DNA of 64,000 nt from Planctomycetota bacterium (GCA_022703445.1 JAKLDR010000013.1:2599-66598), one strand, 5' to 3'. Counted from the stretch's first letter, positions 7,120-44,529 are shown. The notes: generated by a model from the sequence alone, not told the origin. Translations and numbers: made by a program.

Positions 7120-7533
7120 ATGGACACGCACGGCGCACCCACCGGGGACCCGGAGGGCGAACTGCGGGGCTCGCCCTATGCGCAGTTTCAGAACGACGAG
7201 CTGATCCTGCGCGACGAACTGGCCATCGACCGGACCCTGCTGGCCAACGAGCGGACGCTGCTGGCCTATCTGCGCTCGGCCATCGGCCTGCTCATCGCCG
7301 GCGTCACCATAATGCACTTCGGCCAGGAGGGCTGGTTCTGGGGAGTCGGGGTGGGCTGCCTCCCGTGCGGAGTCGTCGCCGGGGTGATAGGCATCATCAG
7401 GTTCCGAAGCATGGACAGGTCCATCTCGCAGCTCAGAGTGCGTCCGGAAGCCCGGGCCGGACAGGCCGGGGACGCGGCCCGGCCGGGCGCAGGGCGCGGC
7501 GACGCAGGCGGTGCGACGGGGAACCGCTGCTGA
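7120..7533 (+). CDS. DUF202 (YidH-like) membrane protein
   Basis: LRDELAIDRTLLANERTLLAYLRSAIGLLIAG is the DUF202 hallmark, followed by a second TM segment. Confidence 0.8.
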   Translation: MDTHGAPTGDPEGELRGSPYAQFQNDELILRDELAIDRTLLANERTLLAYLRSAIGLLIAGVTIMHFGQEGWFWGVGVGCLPCGVVAGVIGIIRFRSMDRSISQLRVRPEARAGQAGDAARPGAGRGDAGGATGNRC

Positions 7534-7566
7534 GGAGCCGCAGCGCCGCCAACCCCCGGGGCGTTC

Positions 7567-7594
7567 TTGACAGCGGCCGGGACCGCCCTATAGT
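7567..7594 (+). promoter_or_regulatory. Sigma70-type promoter candidate TTGACA-N16-TATAGT
   Basis: TTGACA at 7567..7572, a 16-nt spacer, and TATAGT at 7589..7594, in the 68-nt gap after the DUF202 gene. The ATG at 7602 lies only 7 nt past the -10 element. Confidence 0.45.
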
Positions 7595-7601
7595 CGCCGC
7601 A

Positions 7602-7877
7602 ATGCCCGCGTTCAGGAATCCCAGACGCATGGCCAAAGCCGTGGCCTTCGGCGGCCTCTCGCTGCTGTCCTACGCGCTGGTCTTCGTCTTTCAGGACCGG
7701 GTGATGGACTACACGACCCGCGGGGCCGGCCACGCCGTCCTGCCGGTCCTGGGCGTCCTCTACTTCTCGCTGATCCACGGGGCTTTCGCCAGCAACCTCA
7801 TCGCCCTCTTCGGCGTCGAGGCCGCCGGCCGCAGGCGGGAGGGCGGCGGGGACCGGCAGGAACCGGACAGCCGATGA
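7602..7877 (+). CDS. Small membrane protein
   Basis: Internal ATG 7602 of ORF 7365..7877 (alternative ATG 7629). Two hydrophobic helices (AVAFGGLSLLSYALVFVF and VLPVLGVLYFSLIHGAF). The stop overlaps the next start (ATGA at 7874..7877). Confidence 0.55.
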   Translation: MPAFRNPRRMAKAVAFGGLSLLSYALVFVFQDRVMDYTTRGAGHAVLPVLGVLYFSLIHGAFASNLIALFGVEAAGRRREGGGDRQEPDSR

Positions 7878-32829: not shown

Positions 32830-33657
32830 TCAGCCGCAGCAGCAGCGCAGCTGGGTCTCGGCGGACTCCGCCTCGGCCTTCAGGGCGCGCATGCGCCGCT
32901 CGACCGCGGCGCGGTCGACGTGCAGCCCCGCCCCCCGTACGTGGACGGCCCGGAAGAGGTCGAGGAGCACGCCGCTCTCGCCTTTGAGGAAGTCCCGGCT
33001 GGGCGGCCAGCCCAGGAAGAAGACGGCCGGTGCGCCGTTGATCGGTATGGCGCGGGCCAGGTCCGGCCCAGGAGCGGCGGAGGCCTCGCGGACCACCCAG
33101 AGCTCGTGCGAGCGGCCGGCCAGCGACGCCCGGCCCAGCCTCCAGAGCCGGCCGGGGATGACGGCCTGAAGCGTGCCGAAGGCCCGCAGGCCCTCCTTGA
33201 GCGCCCTGGCCAGCGGCGTGAAATCCACGGCCCAGTGCTGCAGCCGCTGCGGCGAGACCTCCACCCGGCCCTTCTCCGGGCAGACGATGAAGTGGTGCAG
33301 CTCCCCGTCGCGGCCGGTCACGCTCTCGACCCATTCGGCGTGGTCAGTTTCGCAGGCCTGGCAGCCGACCGCCCGGGCGGGTTCGGCGGGAGCCAGGAAC
33401 CCCATCCTCCGCAGATCCTGCATGGTGGCTGGCGCGAGGCGGGCGGCCTCGTCGGCCACCAGGACGGGGGAGGGCACCTCCGCCCAGGTCCGCAGAAAGC
33501 GGGGGATCTCGCTCAGCATCGAGCCGCAGGACACATCGCAGCCCACCTGCGGAGCCCGCCTGGCCCTGCCCGTCCTGCGTTTGACCGGTTCGCTTCCGCC
33601 GAATGGCTGGAGGCGCAGCTGATAGACCATCAACCCTGGTGCAGCTTGCCTTCTCAT
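32830..33657 (-). CDS. Hypothetical protein (possible Cys/His metal-binding knuckle)
   Basis: 275-aa ORF with AAGGGGGG 5 nt upstream of ATG 33657 (alternative starts 33630 and 33519). Contains GCQACETDH...HHFIVC and ends in ...QLRCCCG. I recognise no family. Confidence 0.5.
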   Translation of the reverse strand: MRRQAAPGLMVYQLRLQPFGGSEPVKRRTGRARRAPQVGCDVSCGSMLSEIPRFLRTWAEVPSPVLVADEAARLAPATMQDLRRMGFLAPAEPARAVGCQACETDHAEWVESVTGRDGELHHFIVCPEKGRVEVSPQRLQHWAVDFTPLARALKEGLRAFGTLQAVIPGRLWRLGRASLAGRSHELWVVREASAAPGPDLARAIPINGAPAVFFLGWPPSRDFLKGESGVLLDLFRAVHVRGAGLHVDRAAVERRMRALKAEAESAETQLRCCCG

Positions 33658-33907
33658 CCGTCCCCCCTTTGTGGCATGTCGATGATATTATCGGCCCTCA
33701 GCAGCCACGTCCTGTCGCAAAATTGTGTATGGCGCCTGAAAAGACGCCAAGGGTTGCGTTACGTTTGCGAAACACGCCTTCTGCGCGGCTGCAAAAAGCG
33801 CATGTTTGACAGTTGGTGCGACTTAATGAAATCAGGCGCCGATCAAGTCGGAAGACGTGCATTCCGGTGCTTTGCGGAATGCCGTGTAGATACGGTTACG
33901 CCAAGTA

Positions 33908-34390
33908 TCAGTTGATCTGCCCGCGCAGCCTGGCAGCATAGTCGACCACGGCCAGTTCCTGCTCCTCGGTTTCGATGGAGAACGGCCTGAGCTCGCGCAC
34001 CCTGGCGATGGCCCGGCGCGGCTCCCAGCCCTGGCGCACCAGGTAGGATGCCGCCACTGTTCCGCTGCGGCCCAGCCCGGCTCCGCAGTGAACCAAGACC
34101 ATCCGGCCGGCCGCGTCCGCCTGGCGCACGATGAAATCCATGATCCTGTCGAGCTGGCCAGGCGTCGGCGCGGTGAAGTCCGGGATGGCCTCGTGCAGGT
34201 ACTCCATGCCCACGGCACGCACGGCGTCGACCTGGAGCGGCGAGGTGGTCAGCGACACGATCGCGCCGATCTGGTTCCCGCGCAGGAAAGCCAGGTCCTC
34301 CTCCAGCGTGCCGTAGAGACCCGGCCGGCTCATGACCGCGAGCTTCCCGGGCACTATCACCGTGAAGCTGCGGAGGCTGAAAGGTTTCAT
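33908..34390 (-). CDS. Dual-specificity (Cys-based) protein phosphatase
   Basis: ORF 33908..34774, started at ATG 34390, which overlaps the ligase stop (ATGA). HCX5R(S/T) P-loop VHCGAGLGRSGT. 160 aa. Confidence 0.8.
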   Translation of the reverse strand: MKPFSLRSFTVIVPGKLAVMSRPGLYGTLEEDLAFLRGNQIGAIVSLTTSPLQVDAVRAVGMEYLHEAIPDFTAPTPGQLDRIMDFIVRQADAAGRMVLVHCGAGLGRSGTVAASYLVRQGWEPRRAIARVRELRPFSIETEEQELAVVDYAARLRGQIN

Positions 34391-35853
34391 GACTGTCCTT
34401 CCGCGGCCATCTTCGCCAGGGCCTTCCGGTCGGCCTTGCCGGTCGGCCCCTTGGGCAGTTCCGCCAGCAGCACGAAGCGCCGCGGCACCTTGTAGCCGGC
34501 CAGTTCCCGGCGGCAGTGCGCGCGGAGGTCCTCGACGGCCGGCCCGTCGGCGCCGGGGCGGGGGACCACGAAGGCCACCACCTGCTCGCCGCGCTGCTCG
34601 TCGGGCGCACCCGCCACCCCGCACTCGGCCACCGCCGGATGACGGGCGACCGCCGCCTCGACCTCGGCGGGGTGGACGTTCTCGCCGCCGACAATGATCA
34701 GCTCCTTGATGCGCCCGGTCAAGGTCAGGAAACCGTCGGCGTCGAGCCGGCCGAGGTCCCCGGTACAGAGCCATCCGTCGGGGGTCAGCACCCGGCGGGT
34801 GGCCTCCGGCGCGCGGTGGTAGCCGCTCATGACGCTCGCGCCGCGGACCCGGACCTCGCCCTCGGCGCCGGCCGGCAGGGCCCCGCCCCCTTCGTCCGCG
34901 ATCCTGATCTCAAGGTGGGCCAGCGGCCGGCCGACCGTCCCCGGGCGGTTGGAGCCGGGCACGTTGAGCGCCACCACCGGCGAGCACTCGGTGAGCCCGT
35001 ACCCCTCGCAGATCGGCAGGCCGAAGACCGGCTCGAACTCCTCGCGCACCCGCGGCGTGAGCCGCTCGCCGCCGGAGACGATCAGGCGCAGCGCCGGCAG
35101 CGCGCGCGGCCGGGACTTCTGGGCCCGGGCCATGAGGCGGTACATCGAGGGCACGCCCACGATCACGCTCACGCCCTCGGCGGCGAGCTGTAGCGCCCCT
35201 TCGGGCGAGAAGCGGGCCATGGTCACGACCGAGGCGCCGATCAGGAGCGGCGCGATCATCGTGGTGGTCAGCGCGAAGGTGTGGAAGGGCGGCAGCGCCC
35301 CCAGGACGTGGTCCTCGGGACGGAAGCCGGCCGACTCGGCCGCGCCCAGGGCGTTGGCCGCCAGGTTCCGATGGGAGAGGCACACGCCCTTGGGCTCGCC
35401 GGTCGAGCCCGAAGTGTAGAGGATGACCGCCAGGTCGTCGTCGGAACGCTCCGCCGGCGGGTCCAGCGGCGCCCCGGCGGCGAGCAGCCTCTCGACGGCG
35501 AGATAGCGCGCGGCTCCGGCCGGCAACCGCTCCAGGCAGGCCTCGGAGGTGATCACCAGGTCGGCGCCGGAGTGATCCAGGACCGCGGCGAGTTCCTTGG
35601 GAGCCAGGAAGGTGTTGAGCGGCACGGCGGCGCGCCCGGCGGCCAGGACGCCGAAGAACCCGGCCACGAAGCCGGAGCAGTTAGGCAGGTAGATGCCCAC
35701 CGTCCCTCGGGCGGTGGCCGCCGCGACGTGCCCGGCGACCCGGCGCGCGGCGGCGGCCAGCTCCGTGTAGCTCCAAGCCCGTCCGCCGTCGATGACCGCG
35801 GTGCGCGCGGCGTTCTTCGCGGCGGAGTCGAGGAGGGCGCGGGCGAGGGGCAC
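34387..35853 (-). CDS. Acyl-CoA synthetase / fatty-acid AMP ligase (ANL superfamily)
   Basis: ORF 34387..36105. I start it at GTG 35853, 4 nt after the TAG of the upstream mini gene, because the upstream part of the ORF is W/R/G-rich junk overlapping that gene. Motifs: ILYTSGSTGEPKGV, EGYGLTE, TGDLGRLDADGFLTLTGRIKELI, and PKGPTGKADRKAL. Confidence 0.85.
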   Translation of the reverse strand: MPLARALLDSAAKNAARTAVIDGGRAWSYTELAAAARRVAGHVAAATARGTVGIYLPNCSGFVAGFFGVLAAGRAAVPLNTFLAPKELAAVLDHSGADLVITSEACLERLPAGAARYLAVERLLAAGAPLDPPAERSDDDLAVILYTSGSTGEPKGVCLSHRNLAANALGAAESAGFRPEDHVLGALPPFHTFALTTTMIAPLLIGASVVTMARFSPEGALQLAAEGVSVIVGVPSMYRLMARAQKSRPRALPALRLIVSGGERLTPRVREEFEPVFGLPICEGYGLTECSPVVALNVPGSNRPGTVGRPLAHLEIRIADEGGGALPAGAEGEVRVRGASVMSGYHRAPEATRRVLTPDGWLCTGDLGRLDADGFLTLTGRIKELIIVGGENVHPAEVEAAVARHPAVAECGVAGAPDEQRGEQVVAFVVPRPGADGPAVEDLRAHCRRELAGYKVPRRFVLLAELPKGPTGKADRKALAKMAAEGQS

Positions 35854-35857
35854 AGGC

Positions 35858-36130
35858 CTAGCCGCCCGAAAGTGACCGCGACCAGACGTGGCGCAGCACC
35901 GCAGTAGCCAGGAAGCCTGCCACCGCCACGCCCGCTCCCATGCAAATGCTGTTCGCGGACTTGCCCAGGAGTCTGGCCAGATGCTCCGGATCCGACGCCA
36001 GTCCGTGGGCATCCAGGTACCTCTGGGCCATCCACCGCCAGTACCCCCACCCAACCATGCCCATGAGCAGCCCCACCAACCACAGAGCCATCGGTGCCGC
36101 AGCAAGTCGAGCTCTGCTCAGAAGGGGCAT
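35858..36130 (-). CDS. Small membrane protein (two TM helices)
   Basis: ORF 35858..36223, started at ATG 36130, 17 nt after the pmbA stop. Hydrophobic segments MALWLVGLLMGMVGWGYW and ICMGAGVAVAGFLATAVL. Confidence 0.5.
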   Translation of the reverse strand: MPLLSRARLAAAPMALWLVGLLMGMVGWGYWRWMAQRYLDAHGLASDPEHLARLLGKSANSICMGAGVAVAGFLATAVLRHVWSRSLSGG

Positions 36131-36147
36131 CCGCTCACTCGCCAAGA

Positions 36148-37518
36148 CTAGAACTCCGTGGATCCCGTGAATCTGAACGCGCTGAGCTTCAGCGCCGGCA
36201 CGCGGGTCACGCCGCCGTCCCACTCGCCGCCCACGCCCTGGACTTCGGAGCCGACCTGCTCCACCCGGGACAGCGCGTCGAGCACCGACTCGGTGAAGCG
36301 CATGTTGCAGACCGGCCCGGCCACCCGGCCGTTCTCGATCAGGAAGACCCCGTCGCGGGTCATGCCGGTGATCACCGCCTTGGTGGGCTCGGCGACGTTG
36401 GTGTACCAGAAGCGGTTGACGAACAGGCCCTTCGCGGTCGAGGCGATCATGCCCGCCAGGTCGGCGTCGCCGCCCTCCATGACCACGTGCATGGGCAGCG
36501 CGCCGTGCGCGGAGAGCGGCCCGAAGGAGTGGCCGGTGGGAGCCGCGCCCGTCTTCTTGGCGGTGCGGCTGTTATGGGGCAGGTCGCGGGCCACGCCCTT
36601 CTCGACGAGGGTCAGGCGCTTGCGGGGCACGCCCTCGTAGTCGAAGGGCAGGGGCATGGCCGTCGGGTCCAGGCCGTCGTCCCGCAGGGTGATCTTGTCG
36701 CCCACGATCGGCGTGCCCATCCTGCCGGCCAGGCAGGAGCGCCCCTCCTGGTGGGCCTGGGCGTCGAAGCCCAGGTAGACCAGGAAGTCGACCAGCGTCG
36801 AGACCGCCCGGGGGGCCAGGATCACCGGCCACTCGCCGGGGTCAACCTTGCGCGGGCCGCGGGCCTGCAGGGCGGTGTCCACCGCCTCGCGCCCGAAGAT
36901 GGCCAGCCGGGCCGCGAGGGCGTCGACCGACCCGCCCGACCAGTCCTCCGAGCCGGCCGCGCCGTCGACCATGGCGGTGCAGGCCGCGCTGAAGGACGAG
37001 CCGGTGGCGTACTGGCGCACGTCGTTGCTGGTGGCCACGGCCAGCTCGAAGCCGCCGCTGGAGACCTTGCCGGAGGCCACGACGCCCTTCTCCCGGGCGT
37101 AGCCGGCGGCCCGGGCCACGAGGCGCGCGCGCGAGGCCGGCGACAGCGTGGCGGTCTTCTGGTCGCAGGCGCCCTGGATCTCCGGGGCCGGCGCACCGAC
37201 CGCCTCGGAGACCAGCCCCGGGAACTCCTTGTCCTCGGCGGCCTGGGCGGCGATGGCCGCGGCCAGGCGGGCGGCCTGGGAGATGCCCGTCCGGTCCAGG
37301 CGGTTGGTGGTGGCACCGCCGAGCTTCTTCCCGATGATCGCCGCCACCGTGACCGAGGCGTCCTCCTCGGCCACGTTCTGGTGGATGTAGTTGTTGGCGA
37401 AGCGGGTCAGCTCGCTGGAGCCGGCTGTCAGCCGCGCGTAGCCGGCCTTGGCCCCGGCCTTCTCGAGCTCGCCCAGGGCGCGCTCGAGGATGGAGAAGGA
37501 CCTGTCGCGACCGATCAT
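36148..37518 (-). CDS. pmbA: PmbA/TldE metalloprotease subunit
   Basis: ORF 36148..38268, started at ATG 37518, which overlaps the tldD stop (ATGA). The TldD/PmbA-family C-terminal region (GLFVNRFWYTNV..TGMTRDGVFLIENG) lacks HExxxH, as expected for the E subunit. Confidence 0.85.
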   Translation of the reverse strand: MIGRDRSFSILERALGELEKAGAKAGYARLTAGSSELTRFANNYIHQNVAEEDASVTVAAIIGKKLGGATTNRLDRTGISQAARLAAAIAAQAAEDKEFPGLVSEAVGAPAPEIQGACDQKTATLSPASRARLVARAAGYAREKGVVASGKVSSGGFELAVATSNDVRQYATGSSFSAACTAMVDGAAGSEDWSGGSVDALAARLAIFGREAVDTALQARGPRKVDPGEWPVILAPRAVSTLVDFLVYLGFDAQAHQEGRSCLAGRMGTPIVGDKITLRDDGLDPTAMPLPFDYEGVPRKRLTLVEKGVARDLPHNSRTAKKTGAAPTGHSFGPLSAHGALPMHVVMEGGDADLAGMIASTAKGLFVNRFWYTNVAEPTKAVITGMTRDGVFLIENGRVAGPVCNMRFTESVLDALSRVEQVGSEVQGVGGEWDGGVTRVPALKLSAFRFTGSTEF

Positions 37519-38963
37519 TTCACGACCCCCACCTGAACGTTCCTGAAGCGGGCCGGCGCCGTGCCGTGGCCCACGTGGGCGGTCTGCCCGGGCTGGCCCT
37601 TGCCGCAGTTCGGCGTGCCCCACATCTTCCAGTGGTCGCGCGAGCAGACCGCATCGCAGGAACCCCAGAACTCCGGGGTGATGCCGGTGTAGGTGGGGTT
37701 CTTGTACATCCTCCCGAGCCTGCCGCCGCTGATCTCCCAGGCGGCCTCGGTGCCGAACTGGAAGTTCAGCCGCCGGTCGTCGATCGACCAGCTGCGGTTG
37801 GTGGCCAGGAACAGCCCGCCGTCGGTGGCGGCCAGCAGGTCGTCGAACTTCCACTCCCCGGGGAGCAGGTTGATGTTGGTCATGCGCACCAGGGGGATCC
37901 GGCTCCAGCCGTCGGCGCGGGCCGCGCCGGAGCTGGCCAGCCCCAGGCGCGCGGCGCTCTCCCGGTCGGAGATGTAGCCGACGAAGACCCCGGCCTTGAT
38001 CACGTCGACGCGCTGCGCCGGGGTGCCCTCGTCGTCGAAGCCGAAGGTGCCGAGGCCCAGCGGCTCGGTGGCGTCGGCCACCACGTTGACGTGCTCCGAG
38101 CCGTACCGGAAGCCCCCGAGCTTCTCGGTGGTCAGGAAGCTCGTGCCGGCGTAGGCCGCCTCGGTGCCGAAGACCCGGTCGAGCTCTATGGGGTGGCCGA
38201 TGGACTCGTGGACCTGCAGGGCCAACTGCCCGCCGTCGAGGACGACGTCCCGCCGGCCGGCCGGGCACTGCGGGGCGTCGAGCAATTGCCGGGCCTCGGC
38301 CGAGACCCGCTCGGCGTTGCCGGCCAGGTCCATGGCCCGCACGTACTCGAAGCCGGCGGTGCCGAAGTTGCCCCGGAAGCTGTTGGGGTAGCTGCGCACC
38401 TGGAAGTCCGAGCCGCGCACCGCGGTGGCGGCGATGCCGGCGCCGGTCTCGGTGATCTCCTGCTCGAAGCGCACGCCCTCAGTGTTGGCGAAGTGGGTGC
38501 GCTTGCGGAAGATGCTCATGAAGGCCTGGGTGACGGGCAGCTCCGGAGCCCGCAGGCGCTTCTCGGCGGCGGCGAGCAAGCCCAGCTTCTCCTCGACGGA
38601 GACCTCGAAGGGGTCCTCGGCCACCGGCGTGCGGTACTGACCCTCGCCGAAGGCGCCGCCCGGCGCCAGCTGGGCCGGCTCGGAGGCGCGGACCAGGGAG
38701 CTGGCCTTGGCGATCCGGGCGGCCAGCTTGGCCACCCGCGCGGCCTGGCTCTTCTTGGACACGTCCGCCGCCGAGGCGAAGCCCCAGCAGCCGTCGATGA
38801 TCACCCGCACGCCCAGGCCGGCCGAGACGGCGCTGGAGGCCCCGGCCGGCTTGCCGTTCTTGACCTCGTAGCTCTCCGAGCGCTCGTCCACCAGCCGGGC
38901 CTCGGCGAAGGTGGCGCCGAGCACCCGGGCGGCGTCGAGGGCGCTCTTCAGTACGTCTTCCAT
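37515..38963 (-). CDS. tldD: TldD metalloprotease subunit
   Basis: 482 aa. It has HESIGHPIELD (HExxxH), a GTSFL segment and a C-terminal GxC..GKG region typical of TldD. Confidence 0.9.
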   Translation of the reverse strand: MEDVLKSALDAARVLGATFAEARLVDERSESYEVKNGKPAGASSAVSAGLGVRVIIDGCWGFASAADVSKKSQAARVAKLAARIAKASSLVRASEPAQLAPGGAFGEGQYRTPVAEDPFEVSVEEKLGLLAAAEKRLRAPELPVTQAFMSIFRKRTHFANTEGVRFEQEITETGAGIAATAVRGSDFQVRSYPNSFRGNFGTAGFEYVRAMDLAGNAERVSAEARQLLDAPQCPAGRRDVVLDGGQLALQVHESIGHPIELDRVFGTEAAYAGTSFLTTEKLGGFRYGSEHVNVVADATEPLGLGTFGFDDEGTPAQRVDVIKAGVFVGYISDRESAARLGLASSGAARADGWSRIPLVRMTNINLLPGEWKFDDLLAATDGGLFLATNRSWSIDDRRLNFQFGTEAAWEISGGRLGRMYKNPTYTGITPEFWGSCDAVCSRDHWKMWGTPNCGKGQPGQTAHVGHGTAPARFRNVQVGVVK

Positions 38964-39103: not shown

Positions 39104-39445
39104 TCACCCCGGCGGCCAGGACAGCTTGCGGCCGCCGATCAGGTGCAGATGGATGTGGAAGACCGCCTGGCCGGCCTCCGGCCCGCAGTTGAAGACCAGC
39201 CGGTAGCCGCGCTCGGCCAGGCCCTCCTGGCGGGCCAGTTCCCTGGCCGCCAGGTGCAGCCGGCCGACGATCGCGGCGTGGCCGGGCTCCAGGTCGTTGA
39301 TGGTTTCGATGTGCTCCCGCGGGATGATCAGGACGTGGGTCGGCGCCACCGGATTGATGTCCCGGAAGGCGACGATCTCGCCGTCCTCGAAGACCTTCTT
39401 GGCGGGGATCTGACCGGCGGCGATCTTGCAGAATATGCAGTCCAT
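39104..39445 (-). CDS. HIT (histidine triad) family nucleotide hydrolase/transferase
   Basis: MDCIFCKIAAGQIPA... N-terminus and the histidine triad HIHLHLIGG. 113 aa. Confidence 0.9.
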   Translation of the reverse strand: MDCIFCKIAAGQIPAKKVFEDGEIVAFRDINPVAPTHVLIIPREHIETINDLEPGHAAIVGRLHLAARELARQEGLAERGYRLVFNCGPEAGQAVFHIHLHLIGGRKLSWPPG

Positions 39446-39450
39446 GCGCG

Positions 39451-39488
39451 ATCCTCCGGAACCACTCTCCGCTGAGACTGCGGAGGAT
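39451..39488 (-). promoter_or_regulatory. Hairpin pairing the HIT gene Shine-Dalgarno with an upstream anti-SD
   Basis: The minus-strand RNA would read AUCCUCCG-(22 nt)-CGGAGGAU-CGC-AUG. The 8-bp perfect arms are 39481..39488 and 39451..39458, and the GGAGGA of the 3' arm is the only SD for ATG 39445. A regulatory function is inferred only. Confidence 0.3.
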
Positions 39489-39629
39489 TATATCGCCGCC
39501 TGAGCGGCCCGCAACCAGCGCCGCGCTTGAATCACCCTCGGTTTCCTGGGGGTTTGGGCCCGCGTCGGACCGTCGCGGGGTCAGCCTTGGGCTACCGCCT
39601 AGAGTGTCGCGCTCCCGGCCGGGTGGAGT

Positions 39630-40868
39630 TCAGGCCCTCCTCATCGCCAGGCAGGCGTTGTGACCGCCGAAGGCGAAGGAGTTGGAGAGGGCCAGGCGGA
39701 GGCCCTTGGCTTCGCGGGCCGAGCCGGGGACGCAGTCGAGGTCGCAGGCCGGGTCCTGCTCCTCGATGTTCATGGTCGGAGGGATCCGGCCGGTGTGAAC
39801 GGCTAGCGCCGCGATGGCCGCCTCGGCGGCTCCGGCGGCCCCAAGCATGTGGCCCAGCATGCTCTTGGTGCTCGAGACCGGCACGCGGTCGGCGGCCGCG
39901 CCCAGCGCCAGCCGGATGGCCCGCGTCTCGGCCGGGTCGTTCAAGGGCGTGCCCGTGCCGTGGGCGTTGATGTAGCCGACCGCGTCGACCGGCTCGCCGC
40001 TCATGGCCAGCGCCCCGGAGATGGCCCGGGCGGCCGGCTCGCCGGTGGGCTCCGGCGCGGTGATGTGGTGCGAATCGGAGGTCAGGCCCCAGCCGGACAG
40101 CTCGGCGTAGATGCGTGCGCCGCGGGCGCGGGCCCGCGCCATCTCCTCCAAGACCAACACCGCTCCGCCCTCGCTCATCACGAAGCCGTCGCGCCGCAGG
40201 TCGAAGGGCCGGCTGGCATGCACCGGGTCGTCGTTGCGCTTCGATAACGCCCCGCAGGCCGAGAAGGCCGCCATGGACAGCGGGGTGATGCTCGCCTCGC
40301 TCCCGCCGGCCAGCATGACTTCGGCTTGGCCGGTGAGGATGCACGAGGCCGCCTGGGCCACGGCCACCGCTCCCGTCGAGCAGGCCGCGGTCACCGCGAA
40401 GCTCGGGCCCTTGAGTCCGTGGGCCTCGGCCAGCGCCGCCGAGGCGGCGTTGATCATCATCTTGGGGATGGACAGCGGCGGCACCCGGTCGGGCCCGCGG
40501 TTGATGAGCCGGGTCTGGCCCTCCTCGATGGTCTCGATGCCCCCGGAGCCCGAGCCGACCAGCACGCCAGCGCGGTATGGGTCGAGCTTGTCCGCCTCCA
40601 GCCCGGAGTCCTTCAGCGCCATGGCCCCGGCGGCCACGGCGAACTGAACGAAACGGTCCAGGTGCCGGGCGGTTCGGACGTCCATCCAGTCGACCGGCCG
40701 GAAGTCGCGGGCCTCCCCGGCAAAGCGCGTGGCATAGGGGGCGGCGTCGAAGCGGGTTATTGGGCCAATGCCGTTGCGTCCGGCCAGCAACGCCTTCCAG
40801 ACCGGCTCGGCGCCGCAGCCCAGCGGCGTCACCCAGCCTATGCCGGTGACGGCGACGTTGCGGGTCAC
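39630..40868 (-). CDS. fabF: Beta-ketoacyl-ACP synthase II-type ketosynthase, coupled to the radical-SAM fusion gene
   Basis: ORF 39630..40964, started at GTG 40868, which overlaps the upstream stop (GTGA). N-terminus (M)TRNVAVTGIGWVTPLG. Catalytic triad context ACSTG / HITAP / NAHGTGT, and C-terminal NSFAFGGHN. Confidence 0.9.
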   Translation of the reverse strand: MTRNVAVTGIGWVTPLGCGAEPVWKALLAGRNGIGPITRFDAAPYATRFAGEARDFRPVDWMDVRTARHLDRFVQFAVAAGAMALKDSGLEADKLDPYRAGVLVGSGSGGIETIEEGQTRLINRGPDRVPPLSIPKMMINAASAALAEAHGLKGPSFAVTAACSTGAVAVAQAASCILTGQAEVMLAGGSEASITPLSMAAFSACGALSKRNDDPVHASRPFDLRRDGFVMSEGGAVLVLEEMARARARGARIYAELSGWGLTSDSHHITAPEPTGEPAARAISGALAMSGEPVDAVGYINAHGTGTPLNDPAETRAIRLALGAAADRVPVSSTKSMLGHMLGAAGAAEAAIAALAVHTGRIPPTMNIEEQDPACDLDCVPGSAREAKGLRLALSNSFAFGGHNACLAMRRA

Positions 40869-43800
40869 GACCGCACCACGGCCCCGGCCAAGAGCGGACG
40901 CTCCTCGACGAAGTAGCGCCGCAGCGATGCCTCGTCGAGCGGGCGGCGGGCGCCGCGCAGCCACTCGCGGAGCTCCCCGGCGCGGTCCAGGAAGAAGCGG
41001 TAGAGGTTGCGGTCGCCGTCGAGATGGCCGAAGTGCTCGCGGTAGGTTTCCCAGGCGGCCACCAGATCGAGGCCCAGCAGCACCGCCGGCGCGCCGCCGA
41101 CTTTGGCGTAGGCGCGCTCCGGTCCGGCCTCGGTCATCAGCAGCATGCGCTTGTAGAAAGATACGTGCCGGGGGTTCACCGTGATCAGGAAGTCGGTGGC
41201 CCCCTCGAGGTGATGGGCTACCAGATAGGCCAGCTTGAAGAGGTGCTTCATGATCTCCGCGCCCCGGCGCAGATCGGTTTCGATGCTTACCAGACTGACG
41301 ATCTCGCAGAGCTTGCGGCCGCCGGCGCGCAGCCCGTCGAGCTCCGACCGGTAGAGTTCGTCGGCCGGCAGCCCAAGCGGCGAGTCGAAGACCAGGGTCA
41401 AAGCCGCCACCGGGACGGACTGGGTTCGGGAACTGCCCGCCGGCTCCTGCCGTTCGACCAGCAGCGTGGTCGTCCCGGGCAGCGCGTCGTGCAGCCCGTA
41501 CCAGAGCTCCTGCGCGTTGGGCCCGGCATAATCCTTCCCGCGATAGACCCGGTAGGCCAGGCGCCAGGCCTTGCGGCGGTCCTCGGCGGAGGCTGCCACC
41601 CGGATCGAATAGGCCCCGTCAGCCCCGAAGCGGTAGCCGGCAGAAGTATGCCCGTCCTGCTCCTCCAGATTGCGCAGCGCCTCGGTCAGCCGGCTCCTCA
41701 TGACGCGCTCCCTACTGTCCGGGAACCCGGCCTGCTCCATCCCCGCCGGGGCCGGAGCTTCCGGCGGCATCCGGCGGGCGAACGCATAACCCTTCGCGGC
41801 CTCGGCCGCCGCCGGACGGCTCTCCCCGGCTGGGGCCTGCTCCCTGACGGATTCCGCCCTGCGTCCATGGGCCGCCAGGCGGGCCAGGGCCAGCCGGGCC
41901 CGGGCGAGCAGCGAGAAGACCGTCACCGCCAGCCCTCCCTTCATCCGGTCCGGGCGCTGGTCGCAGCCGGCGCAGACCGCGCCTGGCAGGTGCGCCTCCT
42001 TGCGGGCCATCAGGCTGGCGATCGAATCGGTCAGCACGTTGCCGCGCGGGGCGCGCACCGCCTGGTCGTTGCAGCAGATCGAGTCGCCGGCGGCGGTGAT
42101 GAACAGATGCGCGTTCCACATGCACGGCAGGCTGAAGCTGCGCACCAGGTCCAGCACCTCCCAGACCTTCGGGAAGAACCTGCGATAGGAGATGCTCATG
42201 TTCACGCGCACGCCGTTGACCGCCCGGCCGTTGAAGGCCCGGACGAGGTCCGGGTAGAAGTCCACCGAGCTGCCGCGGCTGCGGACGAGCCCCGAGCGGT
42301 TCGAGGTCGCCGGGAAGAGCACCAATTCGACCTCGCCGAGCCCGGCGCGCTCCGCCTCGCGGGTCAGGAAACCGACCGTCTCCGGGAAGCCGCGGCGGAC
42401 CATCTCTCGCTCCGGCGGAGAGAGATGGAAGCACAGCCGCGGGATGCGGCCTTCGGCGCGCAGCTCCATCGCCCGGCGGATCCCGGCCTTGGCGGTTTCG
42501 AGCGTCTCGGCGCCGCGCTCCGGACGGCCGAACATCAGCCGGCCGTAGTCGGCGGGCTCGGTCGTCGGGAAGGAGACGATCAGGGTGAGCCGGTTCCCGG
42601 CCACCGCCTCGAGCACCCCGGGGACCAGCAGCCGCTGGCCGTTGGTCACCACCGAAACCTCAGGTGCCGGCACCGGCGCCGCCCAGTTGCGGAGCATGGC
42701 GCCGAACATGTCCATCCGCTCGCGGAACTCGGGGTGCAGCGTCGGCTCGCCGTCGCCGGAGTTGGCGATGTAGCGCACCCGGACCCCGGCGGCCGCGGCC
42801 TGCTCCACCCGGGCGATCAGCCGCCCGGTGACCTCGCGCGGCTGATACTCGCGCGGCCCCTTGTAGCCGGCCTTGTTCACCCCGCAGGTCTGGCAGTTGC
42901 AGTTGCAGATGCCGTGGACCAGGCTGTTGTTCAGCGACAGAGGCCGGCGGGTGCGCATGGTGCAACCGGCTGGCTCCAGACCGGCGAGCCCCCTCACCCG
43001 CCGGCTGCTGAGCGCGAAGGCGGCGCGGCGCAGGAGATTGAACCCGGTCAGCATCTGCAGTCTGCGGATCAGGATGAAAAGCCTCCAGAGGGGCTGCCCC
43101 GGCGCCCAGCGCCGGAGGACCGAATTGGCCAGGACCAGCAGGCCCATCGGCGTGTTCTCGTCCTCGTCGTACATGAGGAAGTTGGCGTGCCGCAGCGCCT
43201 CACGCTTGGTCAGGGCCTTGACGGCGTCGAGGGATATGCCCCGAGGCTGGAAAGCCACCGGGTGGAGGAAGTTGTCCCCGGTCTCGGCGGCGCCCTCGGC
43301 CCTGAGCCGCTCGGCAACCGGCGAACCGCTGTAGACCCGCAGGCCCACGCCGATGTCCACCAGGTCCCACGGCGCCGCCGCCCGACCGATGGTCGCGAAC
43401 GTCTCGGCAAGGGTTGCGGGCGTCTCGTCAGGGGCTCCGACCAGCAGGAACCAGTGGACGGCAATGCTCCGCTCGTGCAGCAGGCGGCCGGCGCGAAGCA
43501 GGGCGTCCTTGCGGAAGTTCTTGCCCAGGCTGCGCAGCGTGGCGTCGCATCCGGATTCGGCCCCCAGGTCCACGTCCCGGAACCCCGCCGCCTGGAGCAG
43601 ATCGGCCAATTCCTCGTCCACGGCTCCGGGGTTCAGGCCCATGGTGTGCAGCTGCAGGTCGAGCCCGCGGCCGGCGATCTCCCGGAGCACGGCCTTGCAG
43701 TGCTCCAGCGGGATGTTGAAGGTGCTGTCCGTGAACTCCAGCCTGCGGATCCCCGACTCGCGCACCAGTTCCTCGATCTCGGCGGCCACCCGCTGCGGCG

Positions 43801-44473
43801 AACGCAGCCGCCAGGCGCGGCCCTCGATTCGGTTGTAGGTGCAGTAGGTGCAGCCCAGCGCGCACCCGCGCTTGGTCTGGATCTGCAGCGGCGACCCGGC
43901 CCGGACGTAGGGCTTCAGATCGAGCCAGCGCCAGGCCCGTGCGGCCGGAAGTTCGTCCAGGCGCTCCACGCACATCGGATCGTTGTTCTCGGTTATGCGG
44001 CCATCGAGGAGGCGGACCAGCCCGCCCATGCCGTCCAGCGGCTCCCCGGCCGAAAGCCGGCGCAGGAACTCCACCATGGCCGCCTCGCCGTCGCCGCGGA
44101 TGGCGTATTCGAGATCGAAGAACCTCAGCATCTCGGCCCCACTGATGCCCACGGCCGGGCCCCCGATGACGATGGGGCCGGGGAAGACCCGCTTCAACGG
44201 CTCGATGGCCTCCTCGCGAACGGCATCGAGCAGGAACCGCGTGCTGTGGCCGGCACAGTTGTCGATGTTACGAATGCCCACCCCAACCGCGTCGGGACGA
44301 AGATCCGCCACTGCCGCCGCAATGCTCCGCGCCGGATCGCGCGAGAAACACAGGTCAAGCACCCGCACCTCATGCCCGGCCTGCTCAAGCGCCGAGGCCA
44401 CACAGCACAGACCGAACGGGATCACCGGCCATGGCTGGTGGAAGCGGTTCGAGTTGATCAGCAGCGTGCGCAT
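40865..44473 (-). CDS. Triple-fusion protein: B12-binding-type radical SAM + second radical SAM (SPASM/twitch-like) + FeeM/LuxI-like N-acyltransferase domain
   Basis: ORF 40865..44512, started at ATG 44473 (AGGAGG 6 nt upstream). Domain 1 is a Rossmann-like N-terminus plus CALGCTYC (43841..43864). Domain 2 has CNCNCQTC (42884..42907), SGDGEPTL and a late Cys cluster CCNDQ..CAGCDQ. Domain 3 (last ~260 aa) has RKAWRLAYRVYRGKDY...VNPRHVSFYKRMLLMTEAGPERAYAKVGGAPAVLLGLDL, resembling long-chain N-acyl amino acid synthases. There are no stops between domains. Confidence 0.8.
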   Translation of the reverse strand: MRTLLINSNRFHQPWPVIPFGLCCVASALEQAGHEVRVLDLCFSRDPARSIAAAVADLRPDAVGVGIRNIDNCAGHSTRFLLDAVREEAIEPLKRVFPGPIVIGGPAVGISGAEMLRFFDLEYAIRGDGEAAMVEFLRRLSAGEPLDGMGGLVRLLDGRITENNDPMCVERLDELPAARAWRWLDLKPYVRAGSPLQIQTKRGCALGCTYCTYNRIEGRAWRLRSPQRVAAEIEELVRESGIRRLEFTDSTFNIPLEHCKAVLREIAGRGLDLQLHTMGLNPGAVDEELADLLQAAGFRDVDLGAESGCDATLRSLGKNFRKDALLRAGRLLHERSIAVHWFLLVGAPDETPATLAETFATIGRAAAPWDLVDIGVGLRVYSGSPVAERLRAEGAAETGDNFLHPVAFQPRGISLDAVKALTKREALRHANFLMYDEDENTPMGLLVLANSVLRRWAPGQPLWRLFILIRRLQMLTGFNLLRRAAFALSSRRVRGLAGLEPAGCTMRTRRPLSLNNSLVHGICNCNCQTCGVNKAGYKGPREYQPREVTGRLIARVEQAAAAGVRVRYIANSGDGEPTLHPEFRERMDMFGAMLRNWAAPVPAPEVSVVTNGQRLLVPGVLEAVAGNRLTLIVSFPTTEPADYGRLMFGRPERGAETLETAKAGIRRAMELRAEGRIPRLCFHLSPPEREMVRRGFPETVGFLTREAERAGLGEVELVLFPATSNRSGLVRSRGSSVDFYPDLVRAFNGRAVNGVRVNMSISYRRFFPKVWEVLDLVRSFSLPCMWNAHLFITAAGDSICCNDQAVRAPRGNVLTDSIASLMARKEAHLPGAVCAGCDQRPDRMKGGLAVTVFSLLARARLALARLAAHGRRAESVREQAPAGESRPAAAEAAKGYAFARRMPPEAPAPAGMEQAGFPDSRERVMRSRLTEALRNLEEQDGHTSAGYRFGADGAYSIRVAASAEDRRKAWRLAYRVYRGKDYAGPNAQELWYGLHDALPGTTTLLVERQEPAGSSRTQSVPVAALTLVFDSPLGLPADELYRSELDGLRAGGRKLCEIVSLVSIETDLRRGAEIMKHLFKLAYLVAHHLEGATDFLITVNPRHVSFYKRMLLMTEAGPERAYAKVGGAPAVLLGLDLVAAWETYREHFGHLDGDRNLYRFFLDRAGELREWLRGARRPLDEASLRRYFVEERPLLAGAVVRS

Positions 44474-44529
44474 GTCGGCCTCCTGCGCGGGGGGATCAAA
44501 GGCCACCTCCAACTCTCAGTCCCCAGTAA

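What the first reader, a model, noticed from the sequence alone, without database searches (positions are those of the whole stretch)
33908..38963. TldD-PmbA protease pair in one tight operon with a mini membrane protein, an acyl-CoA/AMP ligase and a dual-specificity phosphatase
Seen: five minus-strand genes with minimal gaps.
- tldD/pmbA: ATGA overlap at 37515..37518.
- pmbA to mini gene: 17 nt.
- Mini gene to ligase: 4 nt.
- Ligase to phosphatase: ATGA overlap at 34387..34390.
Motifs: HESIGH in TldD; STGEPKG, GYGLTE and a C-terminal Lys in the ligase; VHCGAGLGRSG in the phosphatase.

Known: TldD/TldE form a heterodimeric metalloprotease that trims or matures peptides (e.g. microcin B17). ANL ligases adenylate carboxylates. 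HCX5R phosphatases act on phospho-proteins, lipids or carbohydrates.

Inference: the combination is not a housekeeping arrangement I recognise. It lies directly downstream (same strand) of the radical-SAM/FeeM/KS locus and the HIT gene, so it could be the peptide-processing and acyl-activation half of the same pathway, for example an acylated peptide. This is speculative.
Basis: partly seen in the sequence, partly recalled or inferred. Interest (0 to 1): 0.6.

Follow-up and report, generated by a model that had tools for sequence, protein, structure and literature searches.

The report
Mosaic protease–ligase–phosphatase operon in a planctomycete
The five tightly packed genes are real and recur in close relatives, but the operon joins two separately conserved housekeeping-type gene sets (a TldD/PmbA peptidase pair and an acyl-activating ligase with a protein-phosphatase-like gene) and shows no conserved link to the neighbouring lipid/radical-SAM locus.

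Summary

The genome is an uncultured Phycisphaerae (Planctomycetota) MAG. HIT–TldD–PmbA–(mini)–ligase–phosphatase recurs only in its own family-level clade, and not in every member. It is built from modules that also occur alone:
- **HIT–TldD–PmbA.** This unit also occurs without the ligase or the phosphatase.
- **Ligase–phosphatase pair.** In a sister family and in a basal relative it sits in a class-wide core cluster: tmk–holB–PSP1–Minf_1886–[ligase]–phosphatase–Ser/Thr kinase. All phosphatase-linked ligases form one clade. One nested lineage keeps HIT–ligase–phosphatase after losing TldD/PmbA.
- **Mini gene.** It is a real, fast-evolving two-helix membrane protein found at the same junction in two other lineages. 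It is absent from the same-genus genome, and unrelated ORFs or non-coding DNA fill that slot elsewhere.

The FabF/radical-SAM–FeeM block adjoins the operon only in this genome, so the "acylated peptide pathway" idea is not supported.

Most likely functions: a general peptide-trimming protease, a CoA-ligase-type (non-FAAL) acyl activator of unknown substrate, and a DUSP23-like protein phosphatase partnered with a Hanks kinase. No biochemical function was tested and no expression data were available.

Interest is low to moderate.

The parts
39487..39492 (-). TATAAT -10-like hexamer (TTGCGG-16 nt-TATAAT) 42 nt upstream of the HIT start, in the 184-nt gap after FabF. It is a candidate start of the transcription unit.
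   Evidence: Read directly from the sequence. The consensus scanner did not call it, so it is weak evidence.
39104..39445 (-). HinT-like histidine-triad (HIT) hydrolase, 113 aa, with the HIHLH motif. It is the most constant left border of the unit in relatives.
   Evidence: Pfam HIT 4.5e-28. NCBIfam HinT scores 121 bits, below the cut-off of 206. HIT lies upstream of TldD in G001, G002, L123-L127, L162, L163, L172 and L178, and directly upstream of the ligase in L129.
37515..38963 (-). TldD, the catalytic subunit of a TldD/TldE-type metalloprotease. HESIGHPIELD lies at 38178..38210 (HESIGH at 38193..38210) and Cys-Gly-Lys at 37599..37607.
   Evidence: Three PmbA_TldD Pfam domains. Aligned to E. 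coli TldD (5NJ5) with HExxxH and CGK in register. The ligand roles are described in PMC5810440.
36148..37518 (-). PmbA/TldE, the non-catalytic partner subunit. It has no HExxxH motif and overlaps TldD by ATGA.
   Evidence: Pfam. PDB hits to PmbA/TldE-type proteins. Motif search negative.
35858..36130 (-). Small two-helix membrane protein, 90 aa (77 aa if translation starts at Met14). It has a conserved loop Y-x4-G-L-A-x2-P and occurs patchily in the operon.
   Evidence: Two hydrophobic segments at about residues 9-29 and 61-80. Only 3 homologous clusters among 1.84 billion representatives. Two of these sit in the same position after PmbA, one of them before the ligase. The gene is absent in G001.
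34387..35853 (-). Class-I adenylate-forming (ANL) ligase, 488 aa. All core motifs are present and there is no FAAL insertion.
   Evidence: Pfam AMP-binding 1.4e-85 plus AMP-binding_C. Best NCBIfam hit is long-chain-fatty-acid–CoA ligase NF004837, 410 bits, below the cut-off of 476. Best PDB hits are fatty-acyl/feruloyl-CoA synthetases at 1e-69. Motif positions.
33908..34390 (-). DUSP23/VHZ-like cysteine-based dual-specificity phosphatase, 160 aa. The P-loop HCGAGLGRSG lies at 34061..34090. It overlaps the ligase by ATGA.
   Evidence: Pfam PTP-SAK 4.4e-23 and DSPc 3.1e-12. PDB hits: 25xa 1e-30, human DUSP23 7e-22, archaeal PTPs 1e-18. Present in 61 of 61 genomes of the class.
33658..33907 (-). 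250-nt spacer that ends the unit. The next gene (33657..32830) belongs to a different gene set.
   Evidence: Coordinates. No terminator-like site was called there. Downstream genes differ in every relative: metG, topA or rlmN-like.

Best explanation
The stretch is one co-transcribed unit, probably starting at HIT: HIT–TldD–PmbA–mini–ligase–phosphatase. It arose in the ancestor of this Phycisphaerae family when a pre-existing ligase–phosphatase pair was placed behind a pre-existing HIT–TldD–PmbA module.

The phosphatase is a core gene of the class. Its ancestral place is tmk–holB–PSP1–Minf_1886–phosphatase–Hanks Ser/Thr kinase. The ligase, which is widespread in the phylum, was inserted once in front of the phosphatase and the two have travelled together since.

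Inferred functions:
- TldD/PmbA form the usual heterodimeric cage protease that trims unfolded peptides.
- The ligase adenylates a carboxylic acid and passes it to CoA. It is of the fatty or organic acid CoA-ligase type, not a FAAL.
- The phosphatase is a protein Tyr/Ser/Thr phosphatase that opposes the kinase, which is now encoded elsewhere in this genome (contig C46).
- The mini protein is an optional membrane accessory.

The products need not act in one pathway, and they are not part of the neighbouring radical-SAM/FeeM/FabF system.

Shown here: gene structure, catalytic motifs, distribution, synteny and the ligase phylogeny. Inferred: co-transcription, all biochemical activities, and the kinase–phosphatase partnership.
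For: **Structure and motifs.**

**Phosphatase distribution.** It is present in 61 of 61 genomes of the class.

**Ancestral cluster.**
- Clustering of neighbours gives tmk–holB–PSP1–F4–[ligase]–phosphatase–kinase across families. F4 is TIGR04138.
- Phosphatase–kinase adjacency holds in 13 of 16 informative loci outside the family and in further f4 loci.

**The ligase–phosphatase pair.**
- Ligase orthologues occur in all 17 genomes of the sister family f4 and are adjacent to the phosphatase in 14-15 of them.
- Elsewhere in the phylum the ligase is present in 54 of 301 genomes. It is never next to the phosphatase in 22 loci examined, and some of those genomes lack the phosphatase altogether.
- In the maximum-likelihood tree all 20 phosphatase-linked ligases form one clade (support 100/98). 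The tmk-cluster copy L130 is basal to the family clade. L129, which lacks TldD/PmbA, groups with the branch of TldD/PmbA-bearing loci G002, L162 and L163.

**Independence of the modules.**
- HIT–TldD–PmbA occurs without the pair (L123).
- TldD–PmbA occurs alone (L121, L128, L174, L175).
- HIT–TldD–PmbA–phosphatase occurs without the ligase (L125).
- HIT–ligase–phosphatase occurs without the protease (L129).

**Own genome.** tmk–holB, PSP1–F4 and the kinase orthologue (64% identical) lie on three other contigs.

**Junction variability.**

**FabF/radical-SAM–FeeM block.** It is absent from the neighbourhood in all relatives.

**Housekeeping neighbours of the pair and of ligase orthologues.** metG, topA, an rlmN-like gene and gyrB–dksA-like genes.
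Against: - The operon is tightly coupled. G001 even has a 1-nt PmbA/ligase overlap. It persists over ligase divergence down to about 61% identity, which could reflect selection for co-expression and hence a shared function.
- The phosphatase stays next to TldD–PmbA in two different arrangements, with and without the ligase.
- The mini gene has so far been found only between PmbA and the ligase.
- No substrate is known for any of the four enzymes.
- The phosphatase fold also includes lipid, RNA, glycan and inositol-phosphate phosphatases, so a protein substrate is only the most probable reading.
- No expression data could be obtained.
- All relatives are MAGs or metagenomic contigs, so absences can be assembly artefacts.
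Confidence: 0.6

Rival explanations
1. Integrated pathway. The four enzymes and the mini membrane protein act together on one substrate, independently of the FeeM locus. One version: a peptide or protein tail is trimmed by TldD/PmbA and then acylated through the ligase's acyl-adenylate. HIT would remove stray adenylates and the phosphatase would remove a phosphate from an intermediate.
For: - Translational coupling throughout.
- PmbA and the ligase overlap by 1 nt in G001.
- The whole set is conserved across the family clade.
- The mini gene is known only from this junction.
- HIT is kept next to the ligase even where the protease is lost.
- TldD/E homologues do occur in RiPP clusters (titles).
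- Earlier notes of this scan report other ligase types beside TldD/PmbA in other phyla (unchecked).
Against: - Every component is dispensable in some lineage while the rest stay: the protease is lost in L129, the ligase is absent in L125, and the pair is absent in L121, L123, L128, L174 and L175.
- The sister family keeps the pair, but most of its genomes lack this TldD type.
- Spacers of 180-220 nt of non-coding DNA, or unrelated ORFs, separate PmbA from the ligase in several relatives.
- No precursor-like peptide, carrier protein or maturase is conserved.
Confidence: 0.15
2. Kinase–phosphatase–substrate unit. The ligase is itself the regulated target: the Hanks kinase switches it off or on and the adjacent phosphatase reverses this. 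The ligase–phosphatase pair is then the functional unit and TldD/PmbA are only co-transcribed neighbours.
For: - In the sister family and in a basal relative the order is ligase–phosphatase–kinase.
- The pair stayed together through at least one relocation and forms a single clade.
- There is precedent for Ser/Thr phosphorylation regulating an ANL enzyme: FadD32 (Le et al. 2016, cited in PMC8044546).
Against: - Phosphatase and kinase are adjacent class-wide, including families that have no ligase orthologue, so the ligase cannot be their main target.
- Ligase orthologues in other planctomycete families work without an adjacent phosphatase, and some without any orthologue of it.
- Only one clade-specific Ser and no Thr or Tyr signature was found in linked ligases.
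Confidence: 0.15
3. Non-protein phosphatase. The DSP-fold enzyme dephosphorylates a lipid, nucleotide, RNA end or sugar phosphate that is metabolically linked to the ligase's acyl substrate, for example a PTPMT1-like phosphatidylglycerophosphate phosphatase in lipid synthesis.
For: - The fold family includes such enzymes.
- Weak hits to PTPMT1 (1.8e-8), baculovirus RNA 5'-phosphatase (1e-7) and PTP-like phytase/XopH models.
- The NCBIfam hit PRK12361 matches a 546-aa profile, of which only the part aligned with the phosphatase was seen. That this family joins such a phosphatase to a lipid-kinase-type domain is from memory and was not checked.
- The ligase's best family hit is long-chain fatty-acid–CoA ligase.
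Against: - Hits to protein phosphatases of the DUSP23/archaeal PTP type are far stronger (1e-30 to 1e-18).
- The class-wide neighbour is a protein kinase.
Confidence: 0.1

Closest known systems
E. coli TldD/TldE (PmbA) heterodimeric metalloprotease (PDB 5NJ5; Ghilarov et al. 2017, PMC5810440)
   Same: - Two paralogous adjacent genes with the three-domain PmbA_TldD architecture.
- TldD has HExxxH followed by the Glu/Asp pair, and the C-terminal Cys-Gly-Lys metal ligand.
- The partner lacks these residues.
   Different: - Far below the NCBIfam equivalog cut-offs: 95 of 513 bits for the E. coli type and 139 of 635 for the archaeal type.
- It belongs to a separate, very conserved subfamily shared with Chloroflexota, Acetothermia and Latescibacterota at 60-68% identity.
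- It is preceded by a HIT gene.
- It is one of three TldD/PmbA pairs in this genome.
- The substrate is unknown.
Human DUSP23/VHZ (PDB 4ERC, 2IMG), the bacterial entry 25xa, and archaeal PTPs (SsoPTP, Thermococcus PTP 5Z5A)
   Same: - A minimal single-domain phosphatase of about 150-160 aa.
- HCX5R(S/T) P-loop and a general-acid Asp in an IPDF context.
- Aligned end to end.
   Different: - Bacterial, and a core gene of a whole class.
- Encoded next to a Hanks-type kinase in most of that class, and next to an ANL ligase in two families.
- The substrate has not been tested.
Short class-I ANL acyl-CoA synthetases (fatty-acyl/feruloyl-CoA synthetases 8WEU/8WEV, malonyl-CoA synthetase MatB, MenE, FadD13, 4-coumarate–CoA ligase)
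   Same: - Domain pair AMP-binding plus AMP-binding_C.
- Motifs A3, A5, A7, A8 and the A10 lysine are present.
- Length is about 490 aa.
   Different: - It reaches no curated equivalog cut-off.
- It forms its own planctomycete orthologue group at 40-48% identity across the phylum.
- In this clade it is fixed next to a phosphatase.
Bacterial Hanks kinase / phosphatase gene pairs such as PrkC–PrpC or PknB–PstP
   Same: A kinase and a phosphatase gene are adjacent and conserved across a large taxon, embedded among core genes. That the named pairs are arranged this way is recalled from general knowledge, not checked here.
   Different: - The phosphatase here has the cysteine-based DSP fold, whereas the named pairs use PP2C-type phosphatases (from memory).
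- In the window's own family the kinase is no longer adjacent.
RiPP clusters that recruit TldD/E-like leader peptidases (for example ammosamide and biphenomycin-like clusters)
   Same: A TldD/PmbA pair is encoded beside other enzymes in one operon.
   Different: - No precursor peptide and no YcaO, MNIO, PEARL or SPASM-type maturase is conserved with the operon.
- The nearby radical-SAM/FeeM gene is not syntenic in any relative.

Membership tests
TldD/TldE (PmbA) metalloprotease | Both subunits carry the PmbA_TldD three-domain architecture | tested here: met
   Pfam PF01523, PF19290 and PF19289 in both proteins. The central domain of PmbA is just below cut-off (20.6 versus 20.9 bits).
TldD/TldE (PmbA) metalloprotease | TldD has the HExxxH motif, the following Glu and Asp, and the C-terminal Cys (plus Lys) metal and clamp residues | tested here: met
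   HESIGHPIELD at 252-262 and CGK at 453-455, aligned with E. coli His262/His267/Glu270/Asp272 and Cys454/Lys456.
TldD/TldE (PmbA) metalloprotease | The partner subunit lacks the metal ligands | tested here: met
   No HE...H in PmbA. Its best PDB hits are PmbA/TldE-type proteins.
TldD/TldE (PmbA) metalloprotease | Heterodimer formation and peptidase activity | not testable with these tools
   Inferred from the 4-nt gene overlap, which is conserved in all relatives.
TldD equivalog of E. coli or archaea (NCBIfam NF008006 / NF040952) | Score above the curated cut-off | tested here: not met
   95.2 versus 513 bits, and 138.7 versus 635 bits. It is a distinct subfamily.
ANL (class I adenylate-forming) acyl-CoA synthetase | AMP-binding and AMP-binding_C domains with motifs A3 (SGSTGxPKG), A5 (GYGxTE), A7 (TGD), the A8 hinge and the A10 Lys | tested here: met
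   Pfam 287.8 and 81.5 bits. Motifs at residues 146, 284, 364, 380 and 473.
Fatty acyl-AMP ligase (FAAL) | FAAL-specific insertion in the N-terminal domain that blocks the CoA-ligation conformation (feature recalled from knowledge of the family; no FAAL sequence was aligned here) | tested here: not met
   Only about 80 residues lie between GYGLTE (284) and TGD (364), and the total length is 488 aa. No entry named as a FAAL appears among the 60 best PDB matches shown.
Long-chain-fatty-acid–CoA ligase (NCBIfam NF004837) or any other curated ANL equivalog | Score above the curated cut-off | tested here: not met
   Best hit 409.9 versus 476 bits. All 25 families shown are below their cut-offs. The substrate is therefore open.
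Cysteine-based dual-specificity phosphatase, DUSP23/VHZ-like | HCX5R P-loop, general-acid Asp, single compact domain | tested here: met
   HCGAGLGRSG at 101. The Asp of IPDF at residue 71 aligns with the DUSP23 IPDF. E-values 1e-30 (25xa) and 7e-22 (DUSP23). Pfam PTP-SAK 82.5 and DSPc 46.9 bits, both above cut-off.
Cysteine-based dual-specificity phosphatase, DUSP23/VHZ-like | Activity on phosphoprotein substrates | not testable with these tools
   Supported only by class-wide adjacency to a Hanks kinase.
PTPMT1-type phosphatidylglycerophosphate phosphatase | Closest similarity to PTPMT1 rather than to protein DSPs | tested here: not met
   PTPMT1 scores 1.8e-8 over 83 residues, against 1e-30 and 7e-22 for DUSP23-like proteins over the full length.
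RiPP or lipopeptide biosynthetic gene cluster | Protease conserved together with a precursor peptide and modifying enzymes | tested here: not met
   - The only nearby modifying enzymes (radical-SAM–FeeM, FabF) are not adjacent in any relative. The fusion has no orthologue in G002 and G003, which keep the ligase and phosphatase (G002 the whole operon).
- The ORFs in the PmbA/ligase junction are unrelated to one another, except for the 2-TM mini protein.

The most novel reading that the evidence does not exclude
The ligase–phosphatase pair is a true functional unit. In this reading the acyl-activating enzyme's activity, or that of its acylated protein or peptide product, is switched by Ser/Thr/Tyr phosphorylation through the class-wide Hanks kinase and the DUSP23-like phosphatase.

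In this family the switch would have been wired to HIT (adenylate hydrolase), the TldD/PmbA peptide trimmer and a private two-helix membrane protein. Together these would form an undescribed, membrane-associated system for regulated acylation or turnover of peptides.
Probability: 0.12. Interest if true: 0.55.

Novelty: new member of a known kind. Interest (0 to 1): 0.27.

Why it matters
The result mainly clears a false lead. The operon should not be counted as part of the radical-SAM/FeeM lipoamino-acid locus, or mined as a natural-product cluster.

Three modest positive results remain:
- **A conserved ligase–phosphatase pair.** An ANL ligase and a DUSP23-like phosphatase stay together across two families that do not share an order in the tool's kinship labels, in three different genomic contexts. 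This gives an uncultured group a testable pair of genes.
- **A cysteine-based phosphatase beside a Hanks kinase.** A DSP-fold phosphatase, and not a PP2C-type enzyme (the partner I recall from the well-studied pairs), is the conserved neighbour of a Hanks kinase inside the tmk–holB–PSP1 core cluster of Phycisphaerae.
- **A small membrane protein family.** A fast-evolving two-helix membrane protein is known only from the PmbA/ligase junction.

None of these changes the current understanding of these enzyme families.

Tried and rejected
1. The genome-contig scan with the ligase returned only generic ANL enzymes at 40% identity or less. None had the phosphatase nearby. The scan was wasted and gave no organism names for close relatives. 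The class name came instead from source names.
2. The idea that the phosphatase is a PTPMT1-like phosphatidylglycerophosphate phosphatase was rejected on relative similarity and on its kinase neighbour.
3. My first view that the mini ORF is unique to this genome rested on its low GC3, its absence in G001 and the unrelated ORFs in G002 and L127. The exhaustive representative search and two contexts overturned it.
4. A search for clade-specific Ser/Thr/Tyr residues in phosphatase-linked ligases, as possible regulatory sites, found only 8 signature positions and one Ser. This is not informative.
5. The FAAL reading of the ligase was rejected on motif spacing and length.
6. Ligase–phosphatase fusion proteins (a Rosetta-stone test) were sought. 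None appeared among the 120 best ligase homologues.
7. Promoter and terminator scans gave nothing above chance: 2 terminator-like sites against 2.5 expected.
9. A literature search for planctomycete dual-specificity phosphatases found nothing relevant.
10. Structure prediction was not run. Sequence matches to solved structures were already unambiguous for fold assignment, and a model could not settle substrates.

Full report
**1. What is in the sequence**

The window has about 71% G+C, so mechanical ORF lists are full of spurious frames.
- TldD: 38963..37515.
- PmbA: 37518..36148.
- A 90-aa ORF: 36130..35858.
- An ANL ligase: 35853..34387, with a GTG start.
- A 160-aa phosphatase: 34390..33908.

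The junctions are as described: ATGA, 17 nt, 4 nt, ATGA. All quoted motifs are present. A HinT-like HIT gene (39445..39104) lies 140 nt upstream. It is preceded by a 184-nt gap after FabF that contains TTGCGG-16-TATAAT. A 250-nt spacer follows the phosphatase. The consensus scan gave no promoter or terminator signal above chance.

**2. What the proteins are**

*TldD and PmbA.*
- Both have the PmbA_TldD domains.
- TldD aligns with E. coli TldD (5NJ5) with HExxxH, the following Glu/Asp and the Cys-Gly-Lys ligand in register. These are the residues shown to bind the metal and tether the clamp in the E. coli enzyme, and TldE lacks them (PMC5810440). PmbA here has no HExxxH.
- Both fall far below the curated equivalog cut-offs.
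- They belong to a strongly conserved subfamily that is 60-68% identical to proteins labelled Dehalococcoidia, Chloroflexota, Acetothermia and Latescibacterota.

*Ligase.*
- It has all ANL core motifs, including the A10 lysine. It is 488 aa long with only about 80 residues between A5 and A7, so it has no FAAL-type insertion.
- Its best matches are fatty-acyl/feruloyl-CoA synthetases, MatB, MenE and 4CL.
- No NCBIfam cut-off is reached, so its substrate is open.

*Phosphatase.*
- It is a minimal cysteine-based DSP.
- Matches are full-length to PDB 25xa (1e-30), human DUSP23 (7e-22) and archaeal PTPs. The match to PTPMT1 is much weaker.

**3. Who has it**

The window lies in a MAG that is 81% complete. 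Source names of homologues place it in Planctomycetota, class Phycisphaerae, with the sister family f4 probably Tepidisphaeraceae.

The phosphatase is in 61 of 61 genomes of the class. I fetched 20 loci, mapped the window's proteins onto them, clustered all neighbours and annotated the recurrent ones. This reveals a class-wide cluster: tmk–holB–PSP1–Minf_1886 (TIGR04138)–phosphatase–Hanks Ser/Thr kinase. Phosphatase–kinase adjacency holds in 13 of 16 informative loci outside the window's family.

In family f4 the ligase sits between Minf_1886 and the phosphatase. Ligase orthologues occur in 17 of 17 f4 genomes and are adjacent to the phosphatase in 14-15 of them.

Only the window's own family has HIT–TldD–PmbA–ligase–phosphatase: G001 and G002, plus G003, whose short contigs carry ligase–phosphatase and the split TldD separately.

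In the window's genome the old cluster is scattered:
- tmk–holB on contig C271.
- PSP1–Minf_1886 on C41.
- The kinase orthologue (64% identical) on C46.

**4. The modules occur separately**

Contexts of TldD and ligase homologues on metagenomic contigs:

| Arrangement | Where |
|---|---|
| TldD–PmbA alone | L121, L128, L174, L175 |
| HIT–TldD–PmbA followed by unrelated genes | L123 |
| HIT–TldD–PmbA–phosphatase–RlmN-like, no ligase | L125 |
| HIT–ligase–phosphatase–topA, no protease | L129 |
| Complete tmk–holB–PSP1–Minf_1886–ligase–phosphatase–kinase | L130 |
| HIT–TldD–PmbA–ligase–phosphatase–metG–M20–FapA–kinase | L162, L163, G002 |

This TldD type is missing from most of the class (8 of 61 genomes).

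A metagenome scan with PmbA found the ligase or phosphatase downstream only among relatives at 59% identity or more (4 of 7 informative loci). It found none in about 70 more distant relatives.

Across the phylum the ligase orthologue group is common (54 of 301 genomes). Outside Phycisphaerae it is never next to the phosphatase (0 of 22 loci). It often follows gyrB and a DksA/TraR-type gene. Some of those genomes have the phosphatase far away or not at all.

**5. History**

A maximum-likelihood tree of 42 ligases shows:
- All 20 phosphatase-linked copies fall in one clade (support 100/98; one change of state).
- The tmk-cluster copy L130 is basal to the family clade.
- The protease-less L129 groups with protease-bearing loci.

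The simplest history has four steps:
1. The ligase was inserted once in front of the phosphatase.
2. The pair was later moved behind HIT–TldD–PmbA in the ancestor of this family.
3. The protease was lost secondarily in one lineage.
4. The ligase was lost in another.

**6. The junction and the mini gene**

The PmbA/ligase junction is a variable slot:
- 1-nt overlap in the same-genus G001.
- 25 nt in L162, L163 and L178.
- 180-220 nt without any ORF in L176 and L177.
- An unrelated 160-aa ORF in L127 and L172.
- An unrelated low-GC 268-aa ORF in G002.

The mini ORF has lower GC3 than its neighbours and two hydrophobic helices. Among 1.84 billion representatives it has three related clusters. One is the window's own gene, called from Met14. 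The two others, about 40% identical (P0242, P0243), lie directly after PmbA orthologues that are 73% and 68% identical. In L165 the mini homologue lies directly before a ligase that is 64% identical. The alignment keeps a loop motif and both helices. The mini gene is therefore real, old within the family, fast-evolving and often lost.

**7. The neighbouring radical-SAM/FeeM/FabF block**

In G001, G002, L127, L162 and L163 the HIT side of the operon is flanked by other genes. In G001, G002 and L127 these are homologues of the window's 46991..48028 gene. In L162 and L163 they are an unannotated gene or a DNA methylase, with a sulfatase further out. The block at 39.6-46.9 kb thus looks like an insertion specific to this genome.

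G001 has 37 matches to the fusion protein, all on other contigs. G002 and G003 have only distant FeeM or B12-radical-SAM homologues, yet keep the ligase and phosphatase (G002 the whole operon). An earlier follow-up in this scan treated that block as a self-contained lipoamino-acid system. My synteny data agree that it is independent.

**8. Reading**

The best-supported explanation is a mosaic, family-level operon of housekeeping and regulatory genes:
- A general peptide-trimming TldD/PmbA protease with its frequent HIT companion.
- An acyl-CoA-synthetase-type ligase.
- A DUSP23-like protein phosphatase that ancestrally pairs with a Hanks kinase.

Co-transcription is inferred from the overlaps, and the activities from motifs and homology. 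None was measured.

Rivals are kept with lower weight:
- A truly integrated acyl-peptide pathway.
- The ligase as phospho-regulated target. There is precedent in FadD32 (Le et al. 2016, as cited).
- A non-protein substrate for the phosphatase.

A search for clade-specific phospho-acceptor residues in linked ligases was uninformative. No ligase–phosphatase fusions were seen.

**9. Verdict**

- Observation: confirmed.
- First reading: partly supported. The operon and its local conservation are real. The pathway link is not supported.
- Novelty: new members of known families in a previously undescribed but ordinary arrangement.
- Interest: low to moderate. The conserved ligase–phosphatase(–kinase) linkage and the junction-specific membrane mini-protein are the only points worth a bench test.

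Noticed in passing
Loci L026, L029, L035, L039, L130 (and G000 contigs C271, C41, C46): Class-wide Phycisphaerae core cluster: tmk–holB–PSP1–Minf_1886 (TIGR04138)–DSP phosphatase–Hanks Ser/Thr kinase. The kinase's conserved neighbour is a cysteine-based phosphatase, whereas the well-studied bacterial pairs use PP2C-type enzymes (from memory).
   Followed up: partly
window 40865-44512; G001 contigs C79, C103, C101, C6, C58, C155 and others: The radical-SAM–radical-SAM–FeeM fusion belongs to a large paralogue expansion. There are 37 matches in the same-genus genome and at least 7 FeeM-domain matches elsewhere in the window's own genome. The other genus of the family has only distant homologues.
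   Followed up: partly
window 39487-39492 (minus strand): TTGCGG-16 nt-TATAAT lies 42 nt upstream of the HIT start codon, in the gap after FabF. It is a possible promoter that would separate the HIT…phosphatase unit from FabF.
   Followed up: no
L022 6759-7565 (G002); L127 9082-9564 / L172 about 7360-7860: Two unrelated ORFs without family matches occupy the PmbA/ligase junction in relatives: 268 aa in a visibly lower-GC stretch, and 160 aa with one N-terminal hydrophobic segment. The junction behaves as an insertion hot spot.
   Followed up: partly
window 37515-38963 and homologues P0045-P0120: This TldD subfamily is 60-68% identical between Planctomycetota and Chloroflexota/Dehalococcoidia, Acetothermia and Latescibacterota. 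It is nevertheless absent from most Phycisphaerae (8 of 61 genomes), which suggests strong constraint plus lateral transfer.
   Followed up: no
L141, L144, L146-L148, L158, L159: In other planctomycete families the orthologous ligase directly follows a DksA/TraR-type zinc-finger gene and, in five loci, gyrB. This is again a core-gene neighbourhood.
   Followed up: partly
G000 contigs C35, C79, C145: The genome encodes three separate TldD/PmbA pairs. The two others are only about 26-32% identical to the window's pair.
   Followed up: no
L162, L163, L022: In the other genus-level lineage the operon is followed by metG, an M20 peptidase, a FapA-domain protein and a roughly 1000-aa Ser/Thr kinase fused to an FGE-sulfatase-type domain.
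   Followed up: no
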